From NCBI GenBank assembly GCA_000004985.1, contig GG738904.1: DNA of 64,000 bases. One strand, written 5' to 3'. Below the pieces are notes generated by a model, which did not search any database, was not told the DNA's origin, and saw nothing but the letters and a program-made list of their open reading frames with translations. Numbering within the stretch: position 1 is the stretch's first letter; the number at the start of each line of letters is the position of its first letter. Shown one piece after another: positions 645 through 52,708 of this stretch. The DNA is from Naegleria gruberi (lineage: Eukaryota). Position numbers and translations under genes: made by a program.

Positions 645-2444
645 TTATTTGGTCGGAATTTTAAGTGAATCCAGATTCAAATCACTTCTCAAATTCTTCA
701 CCTTATTACTCTCAAACTTGACCTTATTCTTCTTAACATGTTGCTTTTGAGTTTGTTTCTGAAATTCCACAGTTTGCTTGAATCGATGATGAGTATCCAA
801 CATCAAGACACATATTTCACTTTCCACATTATCAAACAGAGTATCAGTCAAATGTTCATTCTCACCACTTGCAAAGTAATCCAATTGTTCCTTAACTCTA
901 TCTGCAGCACTCTTATTAATATTCACTGATTTGTCTCCATTGATATCGAGGAAATCAGTGTAAATTTCAAAGGCAATTTCGTACTTTTTCTTTTCAATTT
1001 CATGGAGATCCTTCTCAGTGTAGCCCTTCTTCTTCTTCTTTTTGTGTTGATGGTCCAAGTTGGAGGAGTTGGCAGTTGCAGAGCTACCTGAATCGGAGAG
1101 AGAATCAGAATGAGAATTTGGACTCATGTCATCATAGAGGAATACTTGAATTTCAAAGGACTTTTCACACAGGATTTTGTAATCTGTAATTTTGTCCAAT
1201 AGTAAGTAATTATCCAAACTCAATTCTTGTTTACAATGGTCCCTGAATAGCTTTCTCAATTTGTTATCCCTCATAGTATCCATCAAGAGGAAGGCGTTGG
1301 CTGCCTTGAGCTTTTTCGTATTACTTGCATCCTTTCGAATAGAGACAATGATTGAGGCAATCACTGATGGCAACACAATGCAAATGGAAACACACACCAC
1401 AATGAGTGAAATTGTAGTGATGGTTACATTAACGCTTCGAGAACTATCTTCCAATTCATTCAGATAGTCAACTGTTGGCTGGAATTCTTCACTGTATCCT
1501 GCAATGTCATATTTGTAAGCGTCAGATTCTAATAACGTCATGGCATATGAATAGTTTCCAATATTTGCCAATTCTAACATTTGAGTTTCAAGAGCAATGG
1601 CCTTGGAAGTTCTCAAATCAGCAACTGAAACATTATGAGTATAGGTATATCGCAAATTAGTTGGCAAATAGGCCAACATTTTCGTAATTTCAGTATTGAA
1701 CTTGGTCTTACTCGTTTCGTATTTTGCAGTATAATTGGCTGTCAGTTGCAAATTGTTATTGGTATAGACAGATGATCTGCAAGCTGCCACCATTCTTTCT
1801 CTATACAATGTAATGTTCAAATCCATACTACCAATTGCTGTTTGTAATTCCGAGTTGACCACATAGTAAGCCACAATCAGGATAAGAAGAGCCATAAAGG
1901 CAAGGAAATTTACAATAAGGGAACTCAAATTCAAAAATTTGACAGGAGTCAATTCAATCGTGGAACCGAAACAAGTTCTAATTTTGAGCATGGTTGTGGA
2001 GGAATGACTTTTAGTGGTAGTCTTTGAACCAATACCAGAGGCAGATCTAGGTTGTTTCTTCTCACCATTATATGGATTACCAGTTGCCACATCATGTTCC
2101 TCAGCAAAATTGGCATTTCTATTCGATTTGTCCATCAGAGCCATCGATCTCATCTCAATGGACACAGAACTGGACTGATGCAAATGATTATTATCATGAG
2201 ATTGCAAAGAACTCGTCGAAGTATTCAAATCAGTTGGCAAATGATGAGAACCATTGGCATAAAGTGAATAATCACAATTATTTGGATCAATTTTGTGAAG
2301 TTCTTCAATGACATTTTGGATGGTTGACTTTTCATGGAGTGAATTCGAAGGAGTGGAAAGAGAAGGATGTTCTGTGATATTCTCTTGTTGCTGCATTTTG
2401 GGAGGTGATTGAGTTGGATTGTTTTTTTGAGTTTGGATATTCAA
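645..2444 (-). CDS. Receptor-like membrane protein with a C-terminal RGS domain. Order is cytoplasmic S/T/N-rich N-terminus, TM1, an intervening loop of about 170 aa, TM2, then an RGS domain split by a poly-K insertion.
   Basis: 599-aa ORF. Two strongly hydrophobic segments (LIVNFLAFMALLILIVAYYVV and ITTISLIVVCVSICIVLPSVIASIIV). The C-terminal region (FLLMDTMRDNKLRKLFRDHCKQELSLDNYLLLDKI ... IAFEIYTDFLDINGDKSVNINKSAADRVKEQL) matches the RGS helix pattern by eye. No splice is needed. Confidence 0.6.
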   Translation of the reverse strand: MNIQTQKNNPTQSPPKMQQQENITEHPSLSTPSNSLHEKSTIQNVIEELHKIDPNNCDYSLYANGSHHLPTDLNTSTSSLQSHDNNHLHQSSSVSIEMRSMALMDKSNRNANFAEEHDVATGNPYNGEKKQPRSASGIGSKTTTKSHSSTTMLKIRTCFGSTIELTPVKFLNLSSLIVNFLAFMALLILIVAYYVVNSELQTAIGSMDLNITLYRERMVAACRSSVYTNNNLQLTANYTAKYETSKTKFNTEITKMLAYLPTNLRYTYTHNVSVADLRTSKAIALETQMLELANIGNYSYAMTLLESDAYKYDIAGYSEEFQPTVDYLNELEDSSRSVNVTITTISLIVVCVSICIVLPSVIASIIVSIRKDASNTKKLKAANAFLLMDTMRDNKLRKLFRDHCKQELSLDNYLLLDKITDYKILCEKSFEIQVFLYDDMSPNSHSDSLSDSGSSATANSSNLDHQHKKKKKKGYTEKDLHEIEKKKYEIAFEIYTDFLDINGDKSVNINKSAADRVKEQLDYFASGENEHLTDTLFDNVESEICVLMLDTHHRFKQTVEFQKQTQKQHVKKNKVKFESNKVKNLRSDLNLDSLKIPTK

Positions 2445-4153: not shown

Positions 4154-5476
4154 TTACATGAAATTCGAATACCTTTCAAATTCCCAATCAGTCACACAAT
4201 GATGCACATATTTATCCCATTCTGCTCTCTTAGCCATCTTGAACATGTTGAAATTATGCTCCAGGAAAACTTCCTTCATGAGTGGATCCTTTTCAAATTC
4301 CTTAATGGCTTCCAATAAATTTTCAGGTAATAGTTCGAGACCTTCCTTCTTCAATTCCTCATCCGAATAGTCAAAGACATTGTCTGTTCTGGCAGGTGGT
4401 GCTTCCAATTGATCTTCCATGCCTTGAACACCAGCAGCAATTAAGACACTAAATAAAAGATAGGGATTGGAGAGGAGATCTGGTGAACGAATCTCAACTG
4501 CAGCATCATTGGCACTGGTAAAGAGTGGAACTCTCAATAGGGCAGTTCTATTCTTGTATCCCCAACAGGCAATGGTTGGAGCTTCAAATCCATTCACCAA
4601 TCTCTTATAGGAATTGATGGTTGGATTGGCAATGGCTGTAATTCCCTTCACATGTTTCAAAATGCCGGCAACGTAGGATTTTCCTTGAGCTCCCAATTCA
4701 TCTTGAGCTCCTTCAAAGTTACCAAAGGCGTTGATTTCCTTTCCAGTTTCGTCTTGCTTGAACATTCTCATGTGAATATGTTGTCCACTTCCAGCTTGAT
4801 CTCTGAATGGTTTTGGCATGAAATTAATTTCCAATCCATGTCTGTCAGCAATCACATGAGACAATGACTTGAACATGACCAAATTATCAGCTTGTTTCAA
4901 CAAATCAACATGATTCATTTCAATTTCGTATTGACCTATTCCACATTCGTGATGCAAAACTTGAACTGGAATATTCAATCGTCTACATTCCAAAGAAAGG
5001 TCCATAATGAAAGCTTGTCCCTTAGCAAATGGATACATGGTTGAATATTTACATTGATCGAGTGGTTTTCTAGTTTCCTTATCTAACAAGTAGAATTCAG
5101 GTTCAATCTTGAATGTCATTCTTCTATTCTTTGCTGTCAAATACTTTTCAACAGTTCTTTCCAAGATATATCTACAATCAGAATCAAAATGAGCTCCAGA
5201 ATCTTTACCAACAACGTGGCACAAGACAACAATTCTTCTCATTGGCTTTTTTAACATTGGACAATTGACAGATTCAGGATTTGGATTGGAAATCATTGAA
5301 ATTGGAGGTAATTCAAAGATTGCTTTTGGATCTGGTCTCAAACGAAGATCACTCTGATTAACCAATGCAAATCCAACTGAAGATCCATCAATGGAAGCTC
5401 CTTTCTTCATGCAATCATCTTGTAATAATTCTTCAATGGTGATTGGTGGTGGATTTGAGAGAGTTGGAGTGGTCAT
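4154..5476 (-). CDS. Glutamine synthetase, type I (GlnA-like), intronless
   Basis: 440-aa ORF with GS signatures: DGSS beta-grasp motif (GASIDGSSVGFA), KPFRDQAGSGQHIHMRMF (GSI KP..GSGMHxH-like), NRTALLRVP (NRSAxIRIP-like) and AAGVQGMED. Size and motifs fit GSI rather than the shorter eukaryotic GSII. Confidence 0.85.
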   Translation of the reverse strand: MTTPTLSNPPPITIEELLQDDCMKKGASIDGSSVGFALVNQSDLRLRPDPKAIFELPPISMISNPNPESVNCPMLKKPMRRIVVLCHVVGKDSGAHFDSDCRYILERTVEKYLTAKNRRMTFKIEPEFYLLDKETRKPLDQCKYSTMYPFAKGQAFIMDLSLECRRLNIPVQVLHHECGIGQYEIEMNHVDLLKQADNLVMFKSLSHVIADRHGLEINFMPKPFRDQAGSGQHIHMRMFKQDETGKEINAFGNFEGAQDELGAQGKSYVAGILKHVKGITAIANPTINSYKRLVNGFEAPTIACWGYKNRTALLRVPLFTSANDAAVEIRSPDLLSNPYLLFSVLIAAGVQGMEDQLEAPPARTDNVFDYSDEELKKEGLELLPENLLEAIKEFEKDPLMKEVFLEHNFNMFKMAKRAEWDKYVHHCVTDWEFERYSNFM

Positions 5477-6670: not shown

Positions 6671-7214
6671 GAATTTCAATTTTCCTAACATTCCTGTAAA
6701 TAAACTTTGTAATCATATTCGACATCAATCTAGCTTTAAAAATTAATTCTATTTAATTTCAATTTTGTTTTTTGTCGTCCTGGGTGGGTATCTATCAGAT
6801 CATCCCTCATCAATACCATCTCCAATTATGAATCAATCACAAGTTTTTACTAATATTGTCGTGAGTAATCTAACACATCTTTTGTACTATCGAACGATCT
6901 TTGCATTCGGGTGTAATAAATTAAAATTCTTCATCGTGTTGTCTTTTTTATGAATTTGATGCGGGTTTAAAATCCAAAGCCATCATCATTTTGTTAATTA
7001 TTAATTTTTTTTAAAATTAAAATTAAAAAAACAAGAATGTTCTCTTCATATTCTTAACAACCATAGTCGGAGGCCATTATTAATTTCTCATAATTGATAT
7101 TAGAGCATTATCATCATCAATTTAACTAGCCATATTGTTTCAGTATTATTTGTAATTTTTGGCAATAATTTAATGTATTAGTGCCCATACATCATCCATA
7201 AATTACAAATGATT

Positions 7215-8175
7215 GTTTTCGGAATGTACAAAGAAAAACCGGATTAAACCTTAGATTGACTAGTTTGAGTATAGGTAGTAGTATTAGTATTAGTTGTTGT
7301 TGTGTCTTGTTCGGATTGATTTCTATTGAAAAAATCAAAGGAAGGATGATATAAACACATGACCAAAATTGAAAATATTAAAATTCCCAAACAATTCAAA
7401 AAATCATAAAACAATGATGAATAATTCCAGACAAAACTAACAGCACCCAATCCAACTGCAATAATTTGAAAAAATGTTGAAAATATCAAAACTGAAAGCA
7501 AAATGATAATTTTCAAAATGGGTTGTTTCCATGAATAGGATTGAGATTGATCTTTGAATTGTTTTCTTGTCTTGTTGAGGAGTATAATCACTCTTGAAAA
7601 CACAATCTATTCATTATTTCAAAATAATTTTAGTTTTCATAATTTGCATTTAGAATTATGAGAATGTTAAATGAAAACTTACTGAAATTGCAATTGTTTG
7701 AACAATTAATTGAATTGCAAAGAATGCGAAACAAGCAATCACGAATATGAACAATATATCATCAGCATATGGTATCCCAACAGTTTCTGTTGTCAATGTA
7801 CTATTCCTGTTTATCATAACATCTTGATAGAGTTGATCTGTTTCATTCACATTATTCACTTTCAAATAATTGTGAAATCGTTCAACAATGGAAATATTAC
7901 AAAAAGTATAAGCAGTTCTTGCACACAATGCCAATGTTTGAACAATCAACAATGTATTCACGAGAATGAGAACAATTCTCTGAGCCTTCCTCAATGTCTT
8001 CCAAGTTTGATTCCTCACAATGAAAATAATCATGACAAGAATGAGTGAAATGAACAACAAGATGAAGAGAAAGGAAATCGATTGATCTATAGCACTCAAC
8101 AGAGTATCATCAAAATCATCAATAGTAAACACTGGAGAGGAGACATTGTTGGTAGAAGATGACGTTTCGTTTACC
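7215..8175. repeat. Inverted repeat arm 1 (partner arm at about 12165..13355)
   Basis: Translated ORFs on opposite strands are identical over more than 250 aa (SSPVFTIDDFDDTLLSAIDQSISFLF... and ...NKTRKQFKDQSQSYSWKQPILKIIILLSVLIF...). Intron and 3' flank (caatctaaggtttaatccggtttttctttgtaca) are also shared. Confidence 0.75.
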
Positions 8176-8225
8176 TGGTAGTTTACTAGAAGAGCTAGTT
8201 CGGCAAGTTTTCCAACAGAATGCAT
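7244..8225 (-). CDS. Multi-pass membrane protein, copy A of an inverted duplicate pair. Two exons, join(7244..7606, 7682..8225).
   Basis: ORFs 7656..8294 and 7244..7603 are joined by a 75-nt GTAAGT..AATAG intron (7607..7681) that is itself near-identical to the intron of copy B. Several hydrophobic helices are present. The first in-frame ATG gives MHSVGK at 8225. Confidence 0.6.
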
Positions 8226-8956
8226 CTTTGTTTGTTTTTTTCTTTTGTGATTAGTGAAGTATGACAACGTTACAGGAATGAAAACGAATAACAATTTGAG
8301 AGATATGGATTACTAATTGGAAGAATAGTTGCAACTAACAAATATAGAAAATATTTCCTTGAAATATTTGCAAACCCCGAAGCACTCCAGAAATATTCAC
8401 AAATTCAAAAGTTAATTGTTTCTTTCAATCGATAATTATGAAGTTGCAGGTAGAAACAAGCTCTCTGCAACTGGTACTTTTCGGCAAGGAGTTATCTCGA
8501 AAAAAATGGAAGAAACCACCAGTTAAATAGTTCAATAAGGATGTACCAGAGAAGTAAGATTCAGTGATGCAATTCTATGACTACTACACTATCTAGATTT
8601 TCCCAAAAAACAATGTCTGCAAATGAGCCTGCTAGAGTTGACAGACTAGAAATATTTGCTGTAAACTCATCGAATCTTCAGTTTGAAAACATAGAGAGGG
8701 TAAACAAGCTAATTATTACAAAAAGAAATCTCAAAACTTCTATTTTCCAATTATTTACTCATTTCCTTTTGGTAAAGGATATTTGGCAATGGATTATGAA
8801 AATAATCTTGATAATTTAGTTTCATTCTTTCCATTTATGGATCAAGTTCGAAGGTTTCGTATGTCCAACCTGTTGGACTTTAGCAATGAGAAATAGAGCG
8901 CCAACGTATTGTGTTCAACACAGAGATACCACAGAACTTGGATTTATTCAAAAAAA

Positions 8957-11475
8957 ATGCAAAGACTAAACTTTATTAGAATCCTTTGCTGCTACTTGCT
9001 TACAACAATAATCTTCATGTCAACATGTGTTGTTGAATGTAGAAACATGCATGTCATTGACAAACAAAGTCAATTGCGAGATATATCACAACCTTTCACT
9101 GTGGTTTCTATTCGAAAGTATTACACAAGTTTCGTCAATCATTTGGCACCAATTATGACCTCTGGAGTGGAATTTCTTTCAGATAGTCGACCTCTCCAAG
9201 AATATTTCAATGTTTACTGCGTTTATACTTCAGTTTTCAGCAGTGGAAATTTGGCGCCAAATGACAATTCCATATTAAGTAATCTCAACTCTTCTATTTG
9301 TTCAAGTATAAATCATTTAGACGATTCCAACATGCCAATCGATGCTGCCCATAACAGTTATCTTGTTCTGAACCAAGAACCTTCCATCATCTTCTCCCCA
9401 AATAGTTTACTTCCACTTTGGTCAATTATCTTGAAAAATGCAATGGTTGACCAGACGATGAGGTATAAAGTTTGGAATTATTCGATTTCTGAAACGTTTA
9501 CAATGTATGCACTGTATGATAAAGCAACAAGTATGGAATATGTGTTGGATAGCGATCTAGTTTCGAATAGGGAAGGAATTGTAAAAGAATTGGAAGAGGA
9601 AATATGGAACGATTGTAAATTATTCGAAAGAGTGTACGAAATTCAAATGAGAGAAGGTTTAGGATTGGGATTTTCGTCAATCTCCATTTCTGAAAATAGG
9701 ATTTGCAATGAAACATTACAAAATTCAACATTTATGGAAGAATATCATCAAGCAATTTTGAGAATTGATTTATACTTGAATTTAATGTTGAATTATTCGA
9801 ATCTTGTGAATACTACTGGAAGTTTAACTCAAATGCTTCCAAGTTCCACTTTCTATTTTATGGATAATCTTATTGCTACCTTTAATCCAACCTTTCTAGT
9901 GGAAGCTATTCGAAATGTTTTACAAAATGGAGGATTTAACACATATTTGTCCTATTCGAAACCTTCCTCGAACTATGATATGGAATACTTCTCCATGCTT
10001 CAAAAATCAGATCTGAAACCAGTTTCTCAACTCATGATTCATCCAAATTGTTTCTGCTATTACAACTTGTATGCCTCTCAATATTATTTCAGAGATTCTT
10101 ACCTTCTCAAACTAATCTTCAATGATATAATCTATTTTGGAATATTTTTTATTGGAGTTTTCATCTTCCTCTTTAATTGTGTGAGTTACTGCTTGGATTG
10201 TAAACTTTTTGTAAAGAAGAGAATTCTCCTTCCCTTATTAGGACCTCCAACGTTGATTGTAATCTCAGCATGTTACACTGTATTTTTGAGATCGAAATTT
10301 TCAGTGGCCACTTATTGGATTCTTGTGATTATTGCTGTTTTTCCTGCTCCAATTCTAATTGGTACTTATTTAGTTTCCTTATTTAGATTTTCCTATTGAA
10401 AAATATGGATTTGTGGCAGAAAAAGATTTTCAAATCACCCAAAATTCAGAAACACTTGGCTTCCACATGTACTTCAATGGTATTTTCCATAATTACAACC
10501 TTAATTGTCCTTGTCATTTGTTTGGCACCGATTGTCACTACTTCTGTGGCTATTTTGTTTAGTTCCGCAAATATTCCACAAGAATTGTTTATTCTATTGA
10601 TGGGATTTGAAGTTCTCTTCATGCTATTGTTTGCATTGATATTTTTCATAGTTGACTTGATCAATACTGGAGCTGCAATGATTAAGAGGAAAGGTTTAGG
10701 ATATTATTTCTTCTATGATGATCCTTTCTATTACAGAATTGACTTGTTTATCATGATCTTAATGATGGGATCTGTCATTCCAATCATTGTTGGTTCAGTT
10801 GAGGATGGAACTCCCTATTTCATTGTTCGAAAGGTCTTTACAGTAGTTTTCTTTGTCATGTTCTATGCAATCATTGGTGGAACTGTGACAATTGCTCACT
10901 GGATCAACAAGTTCAGAAGACTGAAATCCAAATACAGAAATGCACAAGTTACCACATTGGAATCATTCTTGGAAGATCAGCAATTTAGAGAAATGTTTCG
11001 AACCTATTCCAAAAATGAATTTTCATTGGAAAATATTATCATGTATGAAGAATTGGAAAAGCTAAAAAAGAACAATAAGGTAACCCCTCAGGAATTGAAA
11101 TCTCTTCAAGAGAAATTCCTCCTTTCATCCTCTGTTCATGAAGTTAATTATCCATCGGCAGTTAAGAAGAACTTTCAAGAATTATTGGATTCGTATAAGG
11201 ATGAGGACGTTTCTTCCAATGACAGTGATTCAACCACACAAACAAAATCATCCAATTCCCTTAAACAATCAACAGGACTTCCAAAGAAGGGAACTGTTAT
11301 GTTGGAAAAGATGTTAGAATTGGTCATGCCAGAATTATTGAAAAACATGTTTGACACATTTTCTCGCTTAAAGACAACACCTGAATTTGGGCATTGGTTT
11401 GAGATGAAGCAAATACAGACAACAGAATTGGGAGAGGAACAACACCAAGAACAACCAAAAGATGAGAAAGTTTAA
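8957..11475 (+). CDS. Receptor with a large N-terminal ectodomain, seven transmembrane segments and a C-terminal RGS domain (7TM-RGS). Probably two exons.
   Basis: ORF 8909..10399 has a signal peptide (MQRLNFIRILCCYLLTTIIFMSTCVVEC), an ectodomain of about 350 aa and 3 TM helices, and ORF 10396..11475 in another frame has 4 more TM helices then an RGS-like region (FRTYSKNEFSLENIIMYEELEKLKK...). A 47-nt GT..AG interval (10373..10419) restores the frame and joins ...IGTYL to KKIFKSPKIQ. Confidence 0.6.
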
Positions 11476-11698
11476 AAACAGCTTAATCCAATAAAAATAA
11501 CATCTCAAAGTATGGGCAGAAATCCTGTATTGTTGGATTTGTTCTCTATTCCAAGTCTACCTTGAATTTTAACCTTTTTCCTTCCTGAATGATGGATTGT
11601 TCACCAAAATGTCTTAAAATTGAACCATATTCAATTCATCACACTCAATATTTCGAGGTAAACACGTTAATGAGGAAATAAGATTCAAACTATTGTGC

Positions 11699-11770
11699 TC
11701 GTCTCGTGGTGTAATGGTAGCATAGTGGACTTTGAATCCATTGACGGAGGTTCGATTCCTCCCGAGACGG
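11699..11770 (+). tRNA. tRNA-Gln (anticodon TTG)
   Basis: Cloverleaf folded by hand: acceptor CGTCTCG/CGAGACG, D-arm GTGTAATGGTAGCAT, anticodon stem GTGGA/TCCAT with loop CTTTGAA, T-arm GGAGG-TTCGATT-CCTCC. Closely resembles canonical eukaryotic tRNA-Gln(UUG). One extra C lies between the T-stem and the 3' acceptor strand. A T-rich tract follows downstream. Confidence 0.65.
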
Positions 11771-12109
11771 TAAACGTGGCGAGCGTAAAAAATTTTGGTT
11801 TTTACAATGTGTAATAGCTCCAGATAAATTAAACAATAACACCAACCAGCTGACGCAGATTAATAACGCATATGGAAAGAGAATAAACCATTGGTTGGCT
11901 ATTATTGTAATGTTTGTTGTTCGGTTCAATGGTTATCTTCTGGAAACCAGTTCCATATTTGGCAAGTTGCAATATTCACACTTATCGAAAAAGTATGAAT
12001 ATCTCTAAAAAAACAGCCGGCTAGCAGCCTTGCAAGGTCATCTAATTGGTTTCCTTTCATTCCAACATTATCACAACAAAAACAAATAACACTGCATTCG
12101 TTAGAAACA

Positions 12110-13334
12110 GTGAAGAAACTTGCCCACCTTTCAAATTTCAAAACTTTTACTGCCACTACTGACGACTCTTCAAATAACAATGTCTCCTCTCCAGTGTTTA
12201 CTATTGATGATTTTGATGATACTCTGTTGAGTGCCATAGATCAGTCGATTTCCTTTCTCTTCATCTTGTTGTTCATTTCACTCATTCTTGTCATGATTAT
12301 TTTCATTGTGAGGAATCAAACTTGGAAGACACTGAGGAAGGCTCAAAGAATTGTTCTCATTCTCGTGAATACATTGTTGATTGTTCAAACATTGGCATTG
12401 TGTGCAAGAACTGCTTATACTTTTTGTAATATTTCCATTGTTGAACGATTTCACAATTATTTGAAAGTGAATAATGTGAATGAAACAGATCAACTCTATC
12501 AAGATGTTATGATCAATAGGAATAGTACATTGACAACAGAAACTGTTGGGATACCATATGCTGATTTAGTGGGAATGTTTTTCTCGAATGGAATTGAAAC
12601 CTTTTTAATACTGTTAGCTCTCTTGGTGATTAATGAAATTGTGCACTACATTTCTCATCTATTCTTCAATCTGATCAAATATTCACAAGGAATATTGAAA
12701 TCAAAGAGAACCAAAATTATCAGAAAGATATTCGATATTTCCTTTTTCATTAGTTCTGGAGTTTTCTTTGTCTTGCTTATTGCAATTTTAGTAATGCTCA
12801 TAATAGTCAAACTGAAAGTAATTGAAGATATATTGTTCATATTCGTGATTGCTTGTTTCGCATTCTTTGCAATTCAATTAATTGTTCAAACAATTGCAAT
12901 TTCAGTAAGTTTTCATTTAACATTCTCATAATTCTAAATGCTAATACTCATTACTCATTTTGAAATTCAAATAGATTGTATTTTCAAGAGTGATTATACT
13001 CCTCAACAAGACAAGAAAACAATTCAAAGATCAATCTCAATCCTATTCATGGAAACAACCCATTCTGAAAATTATCATTTTGCTTTCAGTTTTGATATTT
13101 TCAACATTTTTTCAAATTATTGCAGTTGGATTGGGTGCTGTTAGTTTTGTTTGGAATTATTCATCATTATTTTATGATTTTTTGAATTGTTTGGGAATTT
13201 TAATATTTTCAATTTTGGTCATGTGTTTATATCATCCTTCCTTTGATTTTTTCAATAGAAATCAATCCGAACAAGACACAACAAATACTAATACCGATAC
13301 TAACAATACTCAAACTAGTCAATCTAAGGTTTAA
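12110..13334 (+). CDS. Multi-pass membrane protein, copy B of the inverted duplicate pair (possibly 5'-truncated or a pseudogene). join(12110..12904, 12975..13334).
   Basis: Same protein as copy A, with an extra internal segment of about 86 aa and a variable Thr/Asn-rich C-terminal tract. A 70-nt GTAAGT..AATAG intron is present (12905..12974). There is no in-frame ATG upstream of the first TM helix; the ORF opens with GTG. Confidence 0.5.
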
Positions 13335-13355
13335 TCCGGTTTTTCTTTGTACAAT
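12165..13355. repeat. Inverted repeat arm 2 (partner arm at about 7215..8175)
   Basis: See arm 1. This arm carries an indel of about 260 bp relative to arm 1. Confidence 0.75.
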
Positions 13356-13577
13356 CTTCCTTATGGTAGAATATGTTCCAAAAATTACTATTAATACTAT
13401 TATTTAAATCATGATGAGATGATGTGGTGAAATTCTTGGAGTTAACAGATGTGAAACTACTCCAACAATCAACAGGGTCGGGTTGCCAATATTTTGGTGT
13501 AATTTTTTCATATGAACAATCCAAAATAGGAATTTATTATTATTTAAAATAATTTAAAAATTGCAATTTAAAAAAAA

Positions 13578-15614
13578 ATGCAACTAGAACTAACAGAAGA
13601 AGTTCGGACGCTCATTTCTGAAATCTTGGAAGATGCTTATTTGGAAGGTGATACATACCAATTGATTGGAGAAATCTATGAAACCTATTTACAATTTAGT
13701 GAAGAGATGAATAATAATGAAACGGAAACACTGGACAGATTTATAACCACAGAAAAAGGAACGGATGATCTGACCAGTTTATTCAAATTACTTTATACAT
13801 ATGATTCGGAATTGGATGAATCGTTCGGATTTCAACATGGTGAAATTCCTCTCATGTTGATGAAACCCTTCATGATGATGGAAAATACTTCTCCGAATAA
13901 TTGTAATTTAATATTTCGGCCATTCCCTAAATTTAAAAAAGAAATTCCATCATGGATATTTAAATATTCCTTTTATACATTTGAAACGGTGGAGGAATTA
14001 CCTTTGAATGATTTTCTGGAAACTTTCTTTGTGTTTTTAAGTCATTTTGAAAGACGATTTTGGGGAGATGAAACTTTGTGTCCTAAATGGGGAGAAGCTG
14101 AACAAATCCTGTTCGATAAATGCATGACTATCTTTGGTAGAATTCAATTGAACACTCGTCCAAAAAAGCATGTAGAGAAATTTGAATTGCTCAAATTAAT
14201 CTTTGAACACCTTGAAAATACAGAAACTCAAAAGAGTCATGTCATTACGTATTTTAGTGATTCTTTAACCAAGCTTTTTGCATTGGAATTTGAAAAATTA
14301 AAGTACATGGAAAGAAATGAAGAAAGAGCCAAAAGACTTGAGAAAACATTGAGTCTAATGGAGGGATTGAATTCAAGAGAGAGAACATTTCTTGGAGAAT
14401 TATTTAGTATCGTTGGAGATTCATTGGAAGATTTGGAAATTAGACATTCTGCTTTACGCTTAACTCAAAATTGTAGTTTTAGTGTTGATTTTCTGTCTAT
14501 GTGTGCCAAGTGTTGCGATTCTAAATTTCCAAAATCAATTATCCAAACAGCATTTCAAATATGTGTAATAATGAAGGGCTTCATTGACCCTGATAGAATG
14601 AGCATGCAAGATAGCAACGAGTTGAGTCGCTTATTGGTAAATGCTGCTATTAATTTTAATGTGGAAAATGTTGCAAACGCCCTCACTCTTTTTACCTTCA
14701 TTATATTACGTCAAGATTTTCTTTTTCCACAGGGTGAGGATGAATTAGTACACATAATTTATTTACTTAGAGCAGGTAAATACATTTCTGAAATTAGAAA
14801 TCCTCAATTTGGCTGTTTGGCTCATGTTATACGATTCATTTATAGTAACTGTACTAGTGGGACTATTTCTATAGTTTTACCCAGATATTTTGAAGAAATC
14901 AAGAAAAACACTAATGCACCAACAGCTGATTTAGTAGAACAATTAGCTGAAGCATACCTAACAATGAAAAAATTAATAAGCCTACCATTATGTAGCCCTA
15001 AGAACAGAGAAACTTTGAACACTCTTTCTAATGATATTATTTTGTACGTTTATGAGTATTTCAAAAATAGACCATATGTTTCTGACAATTTGACGCGAGT
15101 AATTATTTCAAACAGATTGTATCATGATCTTCCAAAACTAGAATCTTCCAAATCAAATCTGGAAGTTTTGTTTACAGCATGTGCAAATCCTACATCCTTT
15201 AGGTATTTGGATTTTATGAATTTATTAGCCGAAATGTTGATAGTTGGACTGCCAGTGCTTGTGGACCAATTAAAAAGACCAACAACAGTTATTTTGAGCG
15301 ATCCCGAATTTAGTTTGATTCAAGTTGGTCTCGTCAATCTTGTTGCTAGAGAATTTGCTCATACTTTATTCTACCGACACGTGGAACAATACGGCAGCGA
15401 TATTGAATTTTCTAATGACACATTATGTGGAGAGTACTCTCACGATCTAGCTCTATATGGATTTTTATTGTTTATGGATGATTTATTGGAAAAGGGGTGT
15501 AGTGTAATAACTCTTGTTACTATAGATATTGATGAAAATCTAAAATATAATTCCTTAATTAATTCAATTTACAAACGAGTCCTCCACAAGATTAGTGCCC
15601 ATAAATTGGGTTAG
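13578..15614 (+). CDS. Hypothetical 678-aa protein, intronless
   Basis: Uninterrupted ORF of more than 2 kb in AT-rich DNA, with a proper ATG and predicted largely helical. No domain recognised by eye. Confidence 0.6.
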   Translation: MQLELTEEVRTLISEILEDAYLEGDTYQLIGEIYETYLQFSEEMNNNETETLDRFITTEKGTDDLTSLFKLLYTYDSELDESFGFQHGEIPLMLMKPFMMMENTSPNNCNLIFRPFPKFKKEIPSWIFKYSFYTFETVEELPLNDFLETFFVFLSHFERRFWGDETLCPKWGEAEQILFDKCMTIFGRIQLNTRPKKHVEKFELLKLIFEHLENTETQKSHVITYFSDSLTKLFALEFEKLKYMERNEERAKRLEKTLSLMEGLNSRERTFLGELFSIVGDSLEDLEIRHSALRLTQNCSFSVDFLSMCAKCCDSKFPKSIIQTAFQICVIMKGFIDPDRMSMQDSNELSRLLVNAAINFNVENVANALTLFTFIILRQDFLFPQGEDELVHIIYLLRAGKYISEIRNPQFGCLAHVIRFIYSNCTSGTISIVLPRYFEEIKKNTNAPTADLVEQLAEAYLTMKKLISLPLCSPKNRETLNTLSNDIILYVYEYFKNRPYVSDNLTRVIISNRLYHDLPKLESSKSNLEVLFTACANPTSFRYLDFMNLLAEMLIVGLPVLVDQLKRPTTVILSDPEFSLIQVGLVNLVAREFAHTLFYRHVEQYGSDIEFSNDTLCGEYSHDLALYGFLLFMDDLLEKGCSVITLVTIDIDENLKYNSLINSIYKRVLHKISAHKLG

Positions 15615-20159: not shown

Positions 20160-20232
20160 GGGGTCTTGGCGCAGTCGGTAGCGCGTAGGTCTCATAATCC
20201 TAAGGTCGTGAGTTCGATCCTCACAGACCCCA
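20160..20232 (+). tRNA. tRNA-Met (anticodon CAT), elongator type
   Basis: GGGGTCT-TG-GCGC-AGTCGGTA-GCGC-G-TAGGT-CTCATAA-TCCTA-AGGTC-GTGAG-TTCGATC-CTCAC-AGACCCC-A. Near-identical in the D/anticodon/T arms to vertebrate elongator tRNA-Met, including the 31:39 T-T mismatch. A T5 run follows at 20235..20239. Confidence 0.88.
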
Positions 20233-52585: not shown

Positions 52586-52703
52586 GGCTACGGCCATATC
52601 ACGATGAATGCACCTCATCCCGTCCGATTTGAGAAGTTAAGCATCGTCGAGCCACATCAGTACTGAGGTTGGAGACAACTTGGGAACCTGTGGTGCTGTA
52701 GTC
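52586..52703 (+). rRNA. 5S ribosomal RNA
   Basis: GGCTACGGCCATATCAC...CCGTCCGATTTGAGAAGTTAAGC...GTACTGAGGTTGGAGACAACTTGGGAACCTGTGGTGCTGTAGTC aligns block by block with eukaryotic 5S rRNA. Length is about 118 nt. Confidence 0.88.
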
Positions 52704-52708
52704 TTTTT
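52704..52708 (+). terminator. Pol III oligo(dT) terminator of the 5S gene
   Basis: A TTTTT run lies immediately 3' of the 5S sequence. Confidence 0.6.

What the first reader, a model, noticed from the sequence alone, without database searches (positions are those of the whole stretch)
7215..13355. Near-identical inverted duplication of a membrane-protein gene flanking the 7TM-RGS receptor gene and a tRNA-Gln
Two copies of the same two-exon multi-pass membrane protein gene, each about 1.0-1.2 kb, lie in opposite orientation about 4 kb apart (7244..8225 minus, 12110..13334 plus). They are identical at the protein level over more than 250 aa and also share their intron sequence and 3' UTR start. 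This points to a very recent duplication or ongoing gene conversion. The copies differ by an in-frame indel of about 260 bp and by length variation in a Thr/Asn-rich microsatellite-like tail. The plus-strand copy has no in-frame ATG and diverges 5' of the shared block, so it may be a truncated or chimeric copy. The arms enclose a receptor gene and a Pol III gene. This is the geometry expected for an inversion-prone or recombination-generated module.
Basis: seen in the sequence. Interest (0 to 1): 0.6.

Follow-up and report, generated by a model that had tools for sequence, protein, structure and literature searches.

The report
Inverted receptor-like gene pair kept alike
Two head-to-head copies of a Naegleria-only, GPCR-shaped membrane-protein gene flank an RGS receptor gene and a tRNA; they are an old duplicate pair kept about 98% identical by gene conversion, and each copy carries its own apparently disabling lesion, which makes this a clear but ordinary case of concerted evolution.

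Summary
The window is the Naegleria gruberi NEG-M reference scaffold.

- **Repeat:** arms 7222-8159 (-) and 12167-13356 (+) are about 98% identical and lie 4,007 bp apart. They enclose a 7TM-RGS gene (NAEGRDRAFT_52786) and tRNA-Gln(UUG).
- **Not a recent duplication:** all 10 substitutions in the 259 shared codons are synonymous (dS about 0.06). Homology continues, much diverged, beyond both sharp boundaries. An unconverted island in the TM3-TM4 segment has saturated synonymous divergence (pS 0.71).
- **Direct sign of exchange:** an independent environmental contig (L001) is a clean mosaic of A/C-type and B-type sequence. The best reading is an old inverted paralog pair homogenised by gene conversion.
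- **Lesions in this haplotype:**
  - Copy A has a derived 261-bp deletion that removes TM3 and TM4.
  - Copy B has CTG where the family start ATG should be.
  - The enclosed RGS gene has a 1-nt frameshift.
  - The kinase gene next to A is reduced to a remnant.
  - An intact A-type gene sits on a separate 8.9-kb NEG-M contig.
- **Untested:** inversion of the spacer.

This is a new member of a known kind, of modest interest.

The parts
7244..8225 (-). Copy A of the orphan 7TM gene. Exon 1 is 8225-7683, the intron 7682-7607, exon 2 7606-7244 (stop at 7246-7244). It encodes 301 aa, starts with ATG, and has only 5 TM helices.
   Evidence: Splice model and translation. Hydropathy. 99% nt identity to the independent contig L001, including the 5' flank.
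7222..8159 (-). Arm A of the inverted repeat, the high-identity core. Uninterrupted identity starts at 8150.
   Evidence: the repeat finder I1-I4. Alignment.
7760..7761 (-). Junction of the derived 261-bp in-frame deletion in copy A. It removes the TM3-loop-TM4 hairpin. There is no clean microhomology, only an imperfect TGAT/TGAA match.
   Evidence: Alignments. Every family member aligned across that region retains the segment. The segment maps to helices TM3 and TM4 of the AF2 model.
12092..13334 (+). Copy B of the orphan 7TM gene. Exon 1 is 12092-12904, the intron 12905-12974, exon 2 12975-13334. It has 390 codons and 7 TM helices. CTG sits at the position homologous to A's ATG, and there is no in-frame ATG upstream.
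   Evidence: Enumeration of possible upstream exons found no consensus donor.
12167..13356 (+). Arm B of the inverted repeat, the high-identity core.
12566..12826 (+). 87-codon TM3-TM4 segment present only in B. Its first 22 codons are an unconverted island relative to A-locus-type sequences.
   Evidence: B against L001: pS 0.71 and pN 0.17 in codons 1-22; dS 0.146 in codons 23-87. Mosaic of 5/5 C-type sites followed by 14/14 B-type sites.
8957..11475 (+). Enclosed 7TM-RGS gene (NAEGRDRAFT_52786): signal peptide, ectodomain, 7 TM helices, RGS domain (Pfam match 10957-11193). The reading frame is broken by a 1-nt deletion at about 10394-10398, between TM3 and TM4.
   Evidence: Pfam RGS. The homolog P0007 aligns in frame +2 up to 10399 and in frame +1 from 10396. 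TM count. The reference model P0006 skips the TM region.
11699..11771 (+). tRNA-Gln (anticodon UUG) in the spacer, 320 nt upstream of copy B.
   Evidence: ARAGORN. Rfam RF00005, 68.8 bits.
6811..6941 (-). Remnant, with in-frame stops, of the protein-kinase gene that follows the A-type gene in L001 and in the NEG-M 8.9-kb contig.
   Evidence: blastn gives 88.5% over 87 nt and 81% over 42 nt to the L001 kinase gene. tblastn shows in-frame stops.

Best explanation
This is an old, local, inverted duplication of a gene from a Naegleria-restricted orphan family of GPCR-shaped 7TM proteins. The two gene bodies are kept nearly identical by repeated intrachromosomal (arm-to-arm) gene conversion. The 5' ends, the flanks and a short island inside the gene have diverged.

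**Shown:**
- The inverted repeat and its sharp boundaries.
- Synonymous-only differences in the core.
- Saturated synonymous divergence in an unconverted island.
- A natural recombinant mosaic (L001).
- The family and its predicted fold.
- The lesions: in the sequenced NEG-M haplotype, copy A has lost TM3-TM4 through a 261-bp deletion, and its downstream kinase gene is reduced to a remnant. Copy B has CTG instead of the start ATG. The enclosed 7TM-RGS gene is frameshifted.

**Inferred:**
- The lesions are recent, haplotype-specific decay.
- The intact A-type gene on the separate 8.9-kb NEG-M contig (NAEGRDRAFT_76620) is the other allele and supplies the function.
- Conversion proceeds by ordinary homologous-recombination and mismatch-repair machinery.
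For: **Organism and locus.** The 440-aa and 678-aa ORFs that flank the region are exact matches to NAEGRDRAFT_52785 and _52787 on a 297,120-bp N. gruberi contig. The RGS model is NAEGRDRAFT_52786.

**Repeat.**

**Selection.** There are 10 differences in 259 shared codons, all synonymous. dS is 0.063 and dN is 0. P = 2e-7, or 1e-5 when conditioned on transition/transversion class.

**Old age.**
- Residual collinear similarity lies beyond both boundaries (3/500 and 4/500 shuffles reach the score).
- A's ATG aligns with B's CTG, and the N-terminal peptides are alignable but diverged.
- B against L001 in the first 22 codons of the TM3-TM4 segment gives pS 0.71 and pN 0.17, against dS 0.06 in the adjacent core.

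**Recombination.**
- L001 (ENA metagenome contig) has the A-type 5' flank, N-terminus and intron.
- Its TM3-TM4 segment switches from C-type (5/5 informative residues) to B-type (14/14).
- It carries B states at 3 of the 10 A/B diagnostic sites.

**Deletion is derived.** Every family member aligned across that region has TM3-TM4.

**Family and fold.**
- The named hits are N. gruberi or N. lovaniensis proteins, plus unnamed environmental contigs. There is no Pfam match.
- The AF2 model has a TM core pLDDT of 85-95.
- In N. lovaniensis the family expands by local duplication, with tandem arrays in L005 and L006.

**Intact A-type copy.** P0001.

**Recombination machinery.** Recombination and mismatch-repair genes are reported in Naegleria, which is described as a heterozygous diploid (PMC9928731).
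Against: - No DNA is available for the 8.9-kb NEG-M contig. Its status as an allele rather than a third paralogous locus is inferred only from gene order (TM gene, kinase, GlnS C-terminus at 98% aa identity).
- The saturated island compares B with another strain's A-locus, because window copy A lacks that stretch.
- The residual flank homology is short and only modestly significant.
- The synonymous-only pattern could mean both copies are still functional, with B using an upstream exon or CUG initiation and A working as a 5TM variant. That would contradict the 'decaying haplotype' part.
- The RGS frameshift could be a sequencing error in the 2010 Sanger draft.
- No independent read-level confirmation of copy B's context was obtained.
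Confidence: 0.7

Rival explanations
1. A single, very recent inverted duplication of a 1.2-kb gene segment, with no conversion. Copy B would be a 5'-truncated or chimeric new copy, and the 2% differences would have accumulated since the duplication.
For: Identity is high and includes part of the intron and 21 nt of the 3' UTR, and the boundaries are sharp. B lacks an ATG.
Against: - Homology continues past the boundaries, and B has a CTG exactly where A has ATG.
- The B-type TM3-TM4 segment is saturated at synonymous sites against A-locus-type sequence in one 22-codon island.
- L001 is a mosaic of the two types.
- All 10 differences are synonymous.
- The middle of the intron is far more diverged than its ends.
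Confidence: 0.1
2. An assembly artefact. Two haplotypes, or collapsed reads, of a single locus were placed as a false inverted duplication in the 2010 Sanger draft.
For: - NEG-M is a heterozygous diploid (PMC9928731).
- A third near-identical version sits on a small 8.9-kb contig.
- No exact A or B ORF was found in 15 billion catalogued proteins.
- Three adjacent genes carry lesions.
Against: - The arms differ by 20 substitutions, a 261-bp indel, the intron middle and completely different 5' ends. Each is embedded in unique, unrelated flanks: the kinase remnant and GlnS on one side, tRNA-Gln and NAEGRDRAFT_52787 on the other.
- A-type and B-type sequence blocks both occur in an independent environmental contig.
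Confidence: 0.05
3. Both copies are functional genes. B is expressed from an unrecognised upstream exon or by near-cognate CUG initiation, and A is a viable 5TM variant. The pair would be maintained by selection for dosage or for differential regulation from different promoters.
For: - Differences are synonymous-only, which implies purifying selection on both lineages.
- The deletion is in frame and removes exactly one helical hairpin, so N-out/C-in topology is preserved.
- B's frame stays open for 33 codons upstream of the CTG.
- A formally possible 5' exon exists: ATG 11929, donor GTATGA at 11993, acceptor at 12104.
- A sits at -3 of the CTG.
Against: - None of the 52 candidate upstream-exon combinations uses the GTAAGT donor seen in the gene's own intron.
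- TM3 and TM4 are core helices of the predicted GPCR-like bundle and are present in every family member aligned across that region.
- No transcript-derived or annotated protein for A or B exists in the collections searched, whereas neighbouring genes have such members.
- Synonymous-only variation is equally expected if variants were copied in from functional donors by conversion.
Confidence: 0.2
4. A mobile element or a programmed invertible cassette. The 1-kb arms would act as terminal inverted repeats of a transposon, or as recombination sites of a site-specific switch that flips the RGS-tRNA segment.
For: The geometry fits: inverted arms around a 4-kb cargo. A crossover inside the 399-bp block would join A's promoter and ATG to B's intact body (inference).
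Against: - There is no target-site duplication at the outer ends, and no transposase or recombinase ORF in or next to the module.
- The arms are ordinary spliced genes with a family-conserved intron position.
- The module is unique in the window.
- N. lovaniensis relatives are tandem or single and have no RGS neighbour.
- L001 shows conversion patches, not a crossover product.
Confidence: 0.04

Closest known systems
Arm-to-arm gene conversion in genomic palindromes and inverted segmental duplications, for example the primate Y and X chromosome palindromes (PMC8600007, PMC8327919, PMC8981503)
   Same: - Two inverted arms carry protein-coding genes and are separated by a unique spacer.
- Arm identity is far above that of the surrounding, once-homologous sequence.
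- Variants are patchy and are shared between arms and haplotypes.
- Purifying selection is visible on the arm genes.
- The arms have the potential for inversion of the spacer by non-allelic homologous recombination (NAHR).
   Different: - The arms are only about 1 kb, against more than 10 kb.
- Identity is about 98%, not above 99%.
- The converted tract is confined to the gene body.
- The host is a free-living heterolobosean amoeba, not a sex chromosome.
- Both arms carry structural lesions in this haplotype.
Concerted evolution of young, locally duplicated multigene families, as in the tandem arrays of the same 7TM family in N. lovaniensis (L005, L006)
   Same: It is the same gene family with the same two-exon structure and intron position, and it also expands by local duplication.
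   Different: The N. lovaniensis copies are direct tandem repeats at 57-82% protein identity with no sign of homogenisation. Here the copies are inverted, separated by other genes, and 100% identical in protein over 259 codons.
GPCR / 7TM receptor superfamily (fold level)
   Same: - The topology is seven helices, N-out and C-in, with a glycosylation-rich N-terminus and a short helix after TM7.
- Foldseek's top hits are almost all GPCRs, including class F Frizzled and Smoothened.
   Different: - There is no sequence-profile match to any Pfam or PDB family.
- Microbial rhodopsins score equally well.
- No class-defining motifs were identified.
- G-protein coupling is unknown.
- No homology is detectable to the 7TM part of the neighbouring RGS gene (hhalign probability 0.1%).
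7TM-RGS receptors (AtRGS1-like architecture, known in plants and many protists; PMC3971589)
   Same: The enclosed gene has seven TM helices followed by a cytoplasmic RGS domain.
   Different: - It carries a signal peptide and an ectodomain of about 360 aa that AtRGS1 lacks (own knowledge).
- The RGS domain is split by a Ser-rich insert.
- The reading frame is interrupted in this assembly.

Membership tests
Inverted repeat / palindrome homogenised by arm-to-arm gene conversion | Two arms in inverted orientation around a unique spacer | tested here: met
   Arms 7222-8159 (-) and 12167-13356 (+) with a 4,007-nt spacer.
Inverted repeat / palindrome homogenised by arm-to-arm gene conversion | Arm-to-arm divergence much lower than divergence of adjoining or unconverted homologous sequence | tested here: met
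   Core dS is 0.063. The island in the TM3-TM4 segment has pS 0.71. The N-terminal coding region and flanks are alignable only weakly.
Inverted repeat / palindrome homogenised by arm-to-arm gene conversion | Mosaic (patchy) sharing of paralog-specific variants among copies or haplotypes | tested here: met
   The L001 segment has 5/5 C-type sites followed by 14/14 B-type sites. At the 10 A/B sites its pattern is b b a a a a | a b a a.
Inverted repeat / palindrome homogenised by arm-to-arm gene conversion | Large arms (>10 kb) with >99% identity, as in the mammalian sex-chromosome class | tested here: not met
   The arms are 0.94 and 1.19 kb at 97.8% identity. The mechanism is the same but the size class differs.
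Inverted repeat / palindrome homogenised by arm-to-arm gene conversion | Spacer inversion polymorphism from crossover between arms | not testable with these tools
   No population or long-read data were available. The JGI metagenome scan found no close relatives.
GPCR (7TM receptor) superfamily | Seven TM helices, N-terminus outside and C-terminus inside | tested here: met
   Hydropathy, the positive-inside pattern and N-glycosylation sites in copy B. Seven long helices in the AF2 model of family member P0016.
GPCR (7TM receptor) superfamily | Fold similarity to solved GPCRs | tested here: met
GPCR (7TM receptor) superfamily | Sequence-profile membership in a described GPCR family | tested here: not met
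   There is no Pfam hit for B or for six family members. The PDB profile search gave a best E-value of 2.4.
GPCR (7TM receptor) superfamily | Coupling to heterotrimeric G proteins | not testable with these tools
   This needs biochemistry or genetics. Synteny with RGS genes is not conserved in N. lovaniensis.
7TM-RGS receptor (enclosed gene) | RGS domain above the Pfam gathering threshold, C-terminal to seven TM helices | tested here: met
   PF00615 scores 30.3 and 29.4 bits against a cutoff of 23.9. There are seven hydrophobic segments at residues 391-640 of the frame-corrected protein.
7TM-RGS receptor (enclosed gene) | Uninterrupted open reading frame | tested here: not met
   The frame shifts from +2 to +1 at 10396-10399 relative to homolog P0007. 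Whether this is a real mutation or a sequencing error is unknown.
DNA transposon with terminal inverted repeats | Target-site duplication at the outer ends, and a transposase | tested here: not met
   The outer flanks (...TTCGGAA|TGTACA and TGTACA|ATCTTCC...) share no direct repeat. No transposase-like ORF or Pfam hit lies in 5-16 kb.
Retrocopy / processed pseudogene | Loss of introns in the derived copy | tested here: not met
   Both copies keep the intron at the family-conserved position.
tRNA-Gln | Cloverleaf with a UUG anticodon, scoring above the Rfam threshold | tested here: met
   ARAGORN 11699-11771. RF00005 at 68.8 bits against a threshold of 29.

The most novel reading that the evidence does not exclude
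The two arms carry complementary lesions. A has a promoter and an ATG but lacks TM3-TM4. B has an intact 7TM body but no ATG. Their 5' ends face each other.

A single crossover in the 399-bp block (8159-7761 / 12167-12565) would invert the 4-kb RGS-tRNA spacer and join A's promoter, ATG and N-terminus to B's intact body. A B-to-A conversion tract across the deletion would have a similar effect. Either event would rebuild one complete receptor-like gene.

If such events recur in clonal populations, the module would act as a recombination-based on/off or variant-generating switch for a GPCR-like surface protein in a free-living amoeba.
Probability: 0.04. Interest if true: 0.65.

Novelty: new member of a known kind. 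Interest (0 to 1): 0.3.

Why it matters
- **Gene conversion in Naegleria.** The locus is a compact, well-resolved example of intrachromosomal gene conversion in Naegleria, a lineage whose recombination biology is known mostly from gene inventories. It includes a natural recombinant from an environmental sample.
- **Annotation.** Two genes are missing from the N. gruberi reference annotation. A fused artefactual model (NAEGRDRAFT_76620) and a mis-modelled, frameshifted 7TM-RGS gene (NAEGRDRAFT_52786) also need attention.
- **New family.** The locus defines a Naegleria-restricted, Pfam-less family with a GPCR-like fold, which adds to the receptor repertoire of an organism with an expanded G-protein system.
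- **Haplotype differences.** The haplotype-specific lesions suggest structural heterozygosity, with one haplotype decaying.
- **Limits.** None of this is conceptually new. The value lies in annotation and in population-genetic use.

Tried and rejected
1. **AF2 on P0001.** The model of the close A-type protein with a 6-row alignment had mean pLDDT 36 and was unusable, so no fold search was run on it.
2. **afdb50 fold library.** It was not available.
3. **Word-indexed homolog search.**
   - It returned only the NEG-M paralog or allele and two fragments.
   - The exhaustive phmmer search was needed to find the family.
4. **Reference DNA.** Contigs encoding P0001, P0017 and P0019 are not on record, so no DNA was available for the 8.9-kb contig or the other N. 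gruberi paralogs.
5. **JGI metagenome scan.** It found no close relatives.
6. **Homology between the flanking 7TM family and the 7TM part of the enclosed RGS gene.** Rejected: hhalign probability 0.1%.
7. **A 62-nt intron (10325-10386) to rescue the RGS gene frame.** Rejected, because the homolog P0007 translates through that stretch.
8. **Upstream exon for copy B.** There are 52 formal combinations, none convincing.
9. **Microhomology at the deletion junction.** A clean 3-bp microhomology was my first reading. On re-inspection it is only an imperfect TGAT/TGAA match.
10. **Transposon and retrocopy readings.** Rejected: no target-site duplication, no transposase, and the intron is retained.
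11. **Conserved synteny of the family with RGS or kinase genes in N. lovaniensis.** Not found.
12. **Fritz-Laylin 2010 genome paper.** It is not held in the library.
Full report
**Source of the window.** The two large ORFs flanking the region are exact matches to annotated proteins. ORF 4157-5476 (-) is a glutamine synthetase and ORF 13578-15611 (+) encodes 678 aa. They match Naegleria gruberi NAEGRDRAFT_52785 and NAEGRDRAFT_52787, both on one 297,120-bp contig. The enclosed RGS gene corresponds to NAEGRDRAFT_52786. The window is therefore the NEG-M reference draft assembly. The three locus tags are consecutive, and no protein matching either membrane-gene copy exists in the collections searched. 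I conclude that both copies are unannotated.

**Checking the observation.** The repeat finder reports four collinear inverted blocks:
- 7761-8159 / 12167-12565
- 7642-7764 / 12823-12945
- 7279-7611 / 12970-13302
- 7222-7300 / 13278-13356

They are the only repeats of 60 nt or more in the 64 kb. A base-level alignment gives 902 matches and 20 mismatches (97.8%), one 261-nt indel and 23 small gap columns. The spacer is 4,007 nt.

Copy A (8225->7244, -) is a two-exon gene with an ATG and encodes 301 aa. Copy B (12092->13334, +) has the same structure and 390 codons. It has CTG where A has ATG, and no in-frame ATG back to the upstream stop. The 259 shared codons are identical in protein.

Only about the first 36-37 nt and the last 5 nt of the intron are identical. 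The middle differs and includes a TACTCAT tandem in B.

tRNA-Gln(UUG) at 11699-11771 is confirmed twice. The enclosed gene has a signal peptide, an ectodomain of about 360 residues, seven hydrophobic helices and an RGS domain above the Pfam threshold.

**Recent duplication or gene conversion?** Four results point to an old duplication whose gene body is being homogenised.

1. All 10 nucleotide differences in the 259 shared codons are synonymous (dS 0.063, dN 0). The probability under neutrality is 2e-7, or 1e-5 when conditioned on nine transitions and one transversion.
2. Identity collapses abruptly at 8159/12167 and at 7222/13356, but homology does not end there.
   - The 5' flanks retain a collinear 31-nt match (AAAAACAAAYAA...TGCATTC) that puts B's CTG on A's ATG.
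   - The N-terminal peptides align (V.KLA.L.N).
   - The 3' flanks also retain a weak match.
3. An independent 2,014-bp metagenome contig, L001 (ENA ERZ929261), carries an A-locus-type gene. It is 99% identical to A in the 5' flank, N-terminus and intron, and it still has the 261-bp segment.
   - In the first 22 codons of that segment, B and L001 differ at 71% of synonymous sites but only 17% of non-synonymous sites.
   - In the remaining 65 codons dS is 0.146.
   - A more than 30-fold jump in synonymous divergence inside one exon marks an unconverted island in an old paralog pair.
4. L001 is itself a recombinant.
   - Against the NEG-M protein P0001 ('C') and copy B, its segment is C-type at 5 of 5 informative residues and then B-type at 14 of 14.
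   - At the 10 A/B diagnostic sites it reads b b a a a a | a b a a.

Naegleria encodes the recombination and mismatch-repair genes needed for this and is regarded as a heterozygous diploid (PMC9928731). The closest described phenomenon is arm-to-arm gene conversion in palindromes (PMC8600007, PMC8327919), here on a 1-kb scale.

**What the duplicated gene is.** Neither copy matches any Pfam family. The word-indexed search found only P0001. An exhaustive phmmer search of 1.84 billion representatives found 15 relatives at 22-35% identity. The named ones are all N. gruberi or N. lovaniensis hypothetical proteins, and the rest come from unnamed environmental contigs. None has a Pfam or PDB sequence match.

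The alignment shows a conserved two-exon, seven-helix protein with an N-glycosylation-rich N-terminus. An AlphaFold2 model of member P0016, built with a 22-row alignment, has mean pLDDT 72 (TM core 85-95) and pTM 0.68.
- Foldseek's top hits are almost all GPCRs but weak, with a best E-value of 0.012.

This is therefore a lineage-restricted family with a generic GPCR/rhodopsin-like 7TM fold. G-protein coupling is not shown. It is not detectably homologous to the 7TM part of the neighbouring RGS gene.

In N. lovaniensis the family occurs as singletons and as direct tandem arrays, three copies in L006 and two in L005, with no RGS neighbour. Local duplication is typical of the family. The inverted, homogenised arrangement and the RGS neighbourhood are specific to this locus.

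**State of the genes in this haplotype.**
- *Copy A.* Every family member aligned across that region, including P0001 and L001, contains the 87-codon segment, so A's gap is a derived deletion. It removes exactly TM3, the cytoplasmic loop and TM4. Topology is preserved, but two core helices of the predicted bundle are lost.
- *Kinase next to A.* In L001 and in the P0001 gene model a protein-kinase gene follows the A-type gene. In the window only a 130-nt remnant with stops remains, at 6811-6941.
- *Copy B.* It keeps all seven helices but lacks a start codon. Of 52 formally possible upstream-exon rescues, none uses a consensus donor.
- *Enclosed 7TM-RGS gene.* It is frameshifted by one missing T at about 10394-10398 relative to its 57%-identical homolog P0007. 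The reference model evades this by skipping most TM helices.
- *Intact A-type gene.* P0001 (NAEGRDRAFT_76620) sits on a separate 8.9-kb NEG-M contig. It is an A-type gene with an ATG and the full segment, artefactually fused to the kinase and to a glutamine-synthetase C-terminus that is 98% identical to the window's.

I infer that the 8.9-kb contig is the other haplotype of locus A and that the window's haplotype is decaying. This is inference, because the contig's DNA could not be retrieved. The synonymous-only pattern fits either copies that were functional until recently or variants imported from functional donors by conversion.

**Rivals.**
- A one-step recent duplication is contradicted by the saturated island, the diverged but homologous ends and the mosaic.
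- An assembly artefact is unlikely. The arms differ in many ways and lie in unrelated unique flanks, and both sequence types occur in an independent sample. Long-read confirmation is still missing.
- A transposon or retrocopy origin fails its defining tests: there is no target-site duplication, no transposase, and the intron is retained.
- That both copies are still functional cannot be excluded.
- Recurrent inversion of the spacer is geometrically possible. A crossover in the 399-bp block would join A's promoter and ATG to B's intact body and rebuild a complete gene. There is no evidence for this, and L001 shows conversion patches rather than a crossover product.

**Verdict.** 'Very recent duplication' and 'truncated/chimeric copy' are not. 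'Inversion-prone' is untested. The phenomenon is a known kind. The locus, the unannotated genes and the orphan GPCR-like family are new particulars.

Noticed in passing
window 10394-10398 (gene 8957-11475 +): The 7TM-RGS gene NAEGRDRAFT_52786 has a 1-nt frameshift (TATTGA where TATTTGA is expected) relative to its homolog P0007. The reference protein model (XP_002671559, 586 aa) avoids it by splicing out the region that encodes most of the TM helices. It is either a real pseudogenising mutation or a draft-sequence error.
   Followed up: partly
window 6811-6941 (-): A degraded fragment of a protein-kinase gene, 88% nt identity to L001 1703-1788, with in-frame stops. In L001 and in the NEG-M 8.9-kb contig an intact kinase gene follows the A-type 7TM gene.
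   Followed up: partly
separate NEG-M contig (8,912 bp), protein XP_002668467 / NAEGRDRAFT_76620: The reference gene model is an artefactual fusion of three genes: the 7TM gene, a kinase and the C-terminus of a glutamine synthetase. Its 7TM part is the only intact A-type copy seen. It is probably the alternative haplotype of the window's locus A.
   Followed up: partly
window 645-2444 (-): A second membrane-anchored RGS-domain gene (PF00615, E = 3.6e-7; two hydrophobic segments) lies about 6.5 kb from the 7TM-RGS gene. Two RGS genes therefore sit within 11 kb.
   Followed up: no
L006 10001-14682 and L005 10001-12986 (N. lovaniensis GCA_003324165.2): The same orphan 7TM family forms direct tandem arrays in N. 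lovaniensis. L006 has three copies at 62-82% protein identity and L005 has two at 57%. All have the same intron position.
   Followed up: partly
L002 8924-10429 and L003 5309-6814 (N. lovaniensis): One family member (C9374_002877 = C9374_014293) is encoded identically on two contigs, within a longer shared segment that includes the two downstream genes. One of the contigs is only 22.6 kb, which suggests a haplotig or a recent segmental duplication.
   Followed up: no
L001 position 711: The environmental A-type copy has an extra T (T6 against T5 in copy B) that frameshifts the TM3-TM4 segment. It is either a metagenome assembly error or another independently damaged allele.
   Followed up: no
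window 52586-52704 (+) and 20160-20232 (+): A dispersed 5S rRNA gene (Rfam, 105 bits) and a tRNA-Met(CAU) gene. With tRNA-Gln, that makes three Pol III genes in 64 kb.
   Followed up: no
window 12377-12408 vs 12878-12909 (and 7918-7949 vs 7678-7709): There is an internal 32-nt repeat at 75% identity within each copy. It encodes LIVQTLAL (TM2) and LIVQTIAI (TM5), a possible trace of an internal duplication in the 7TM protein.
   Followed up: no
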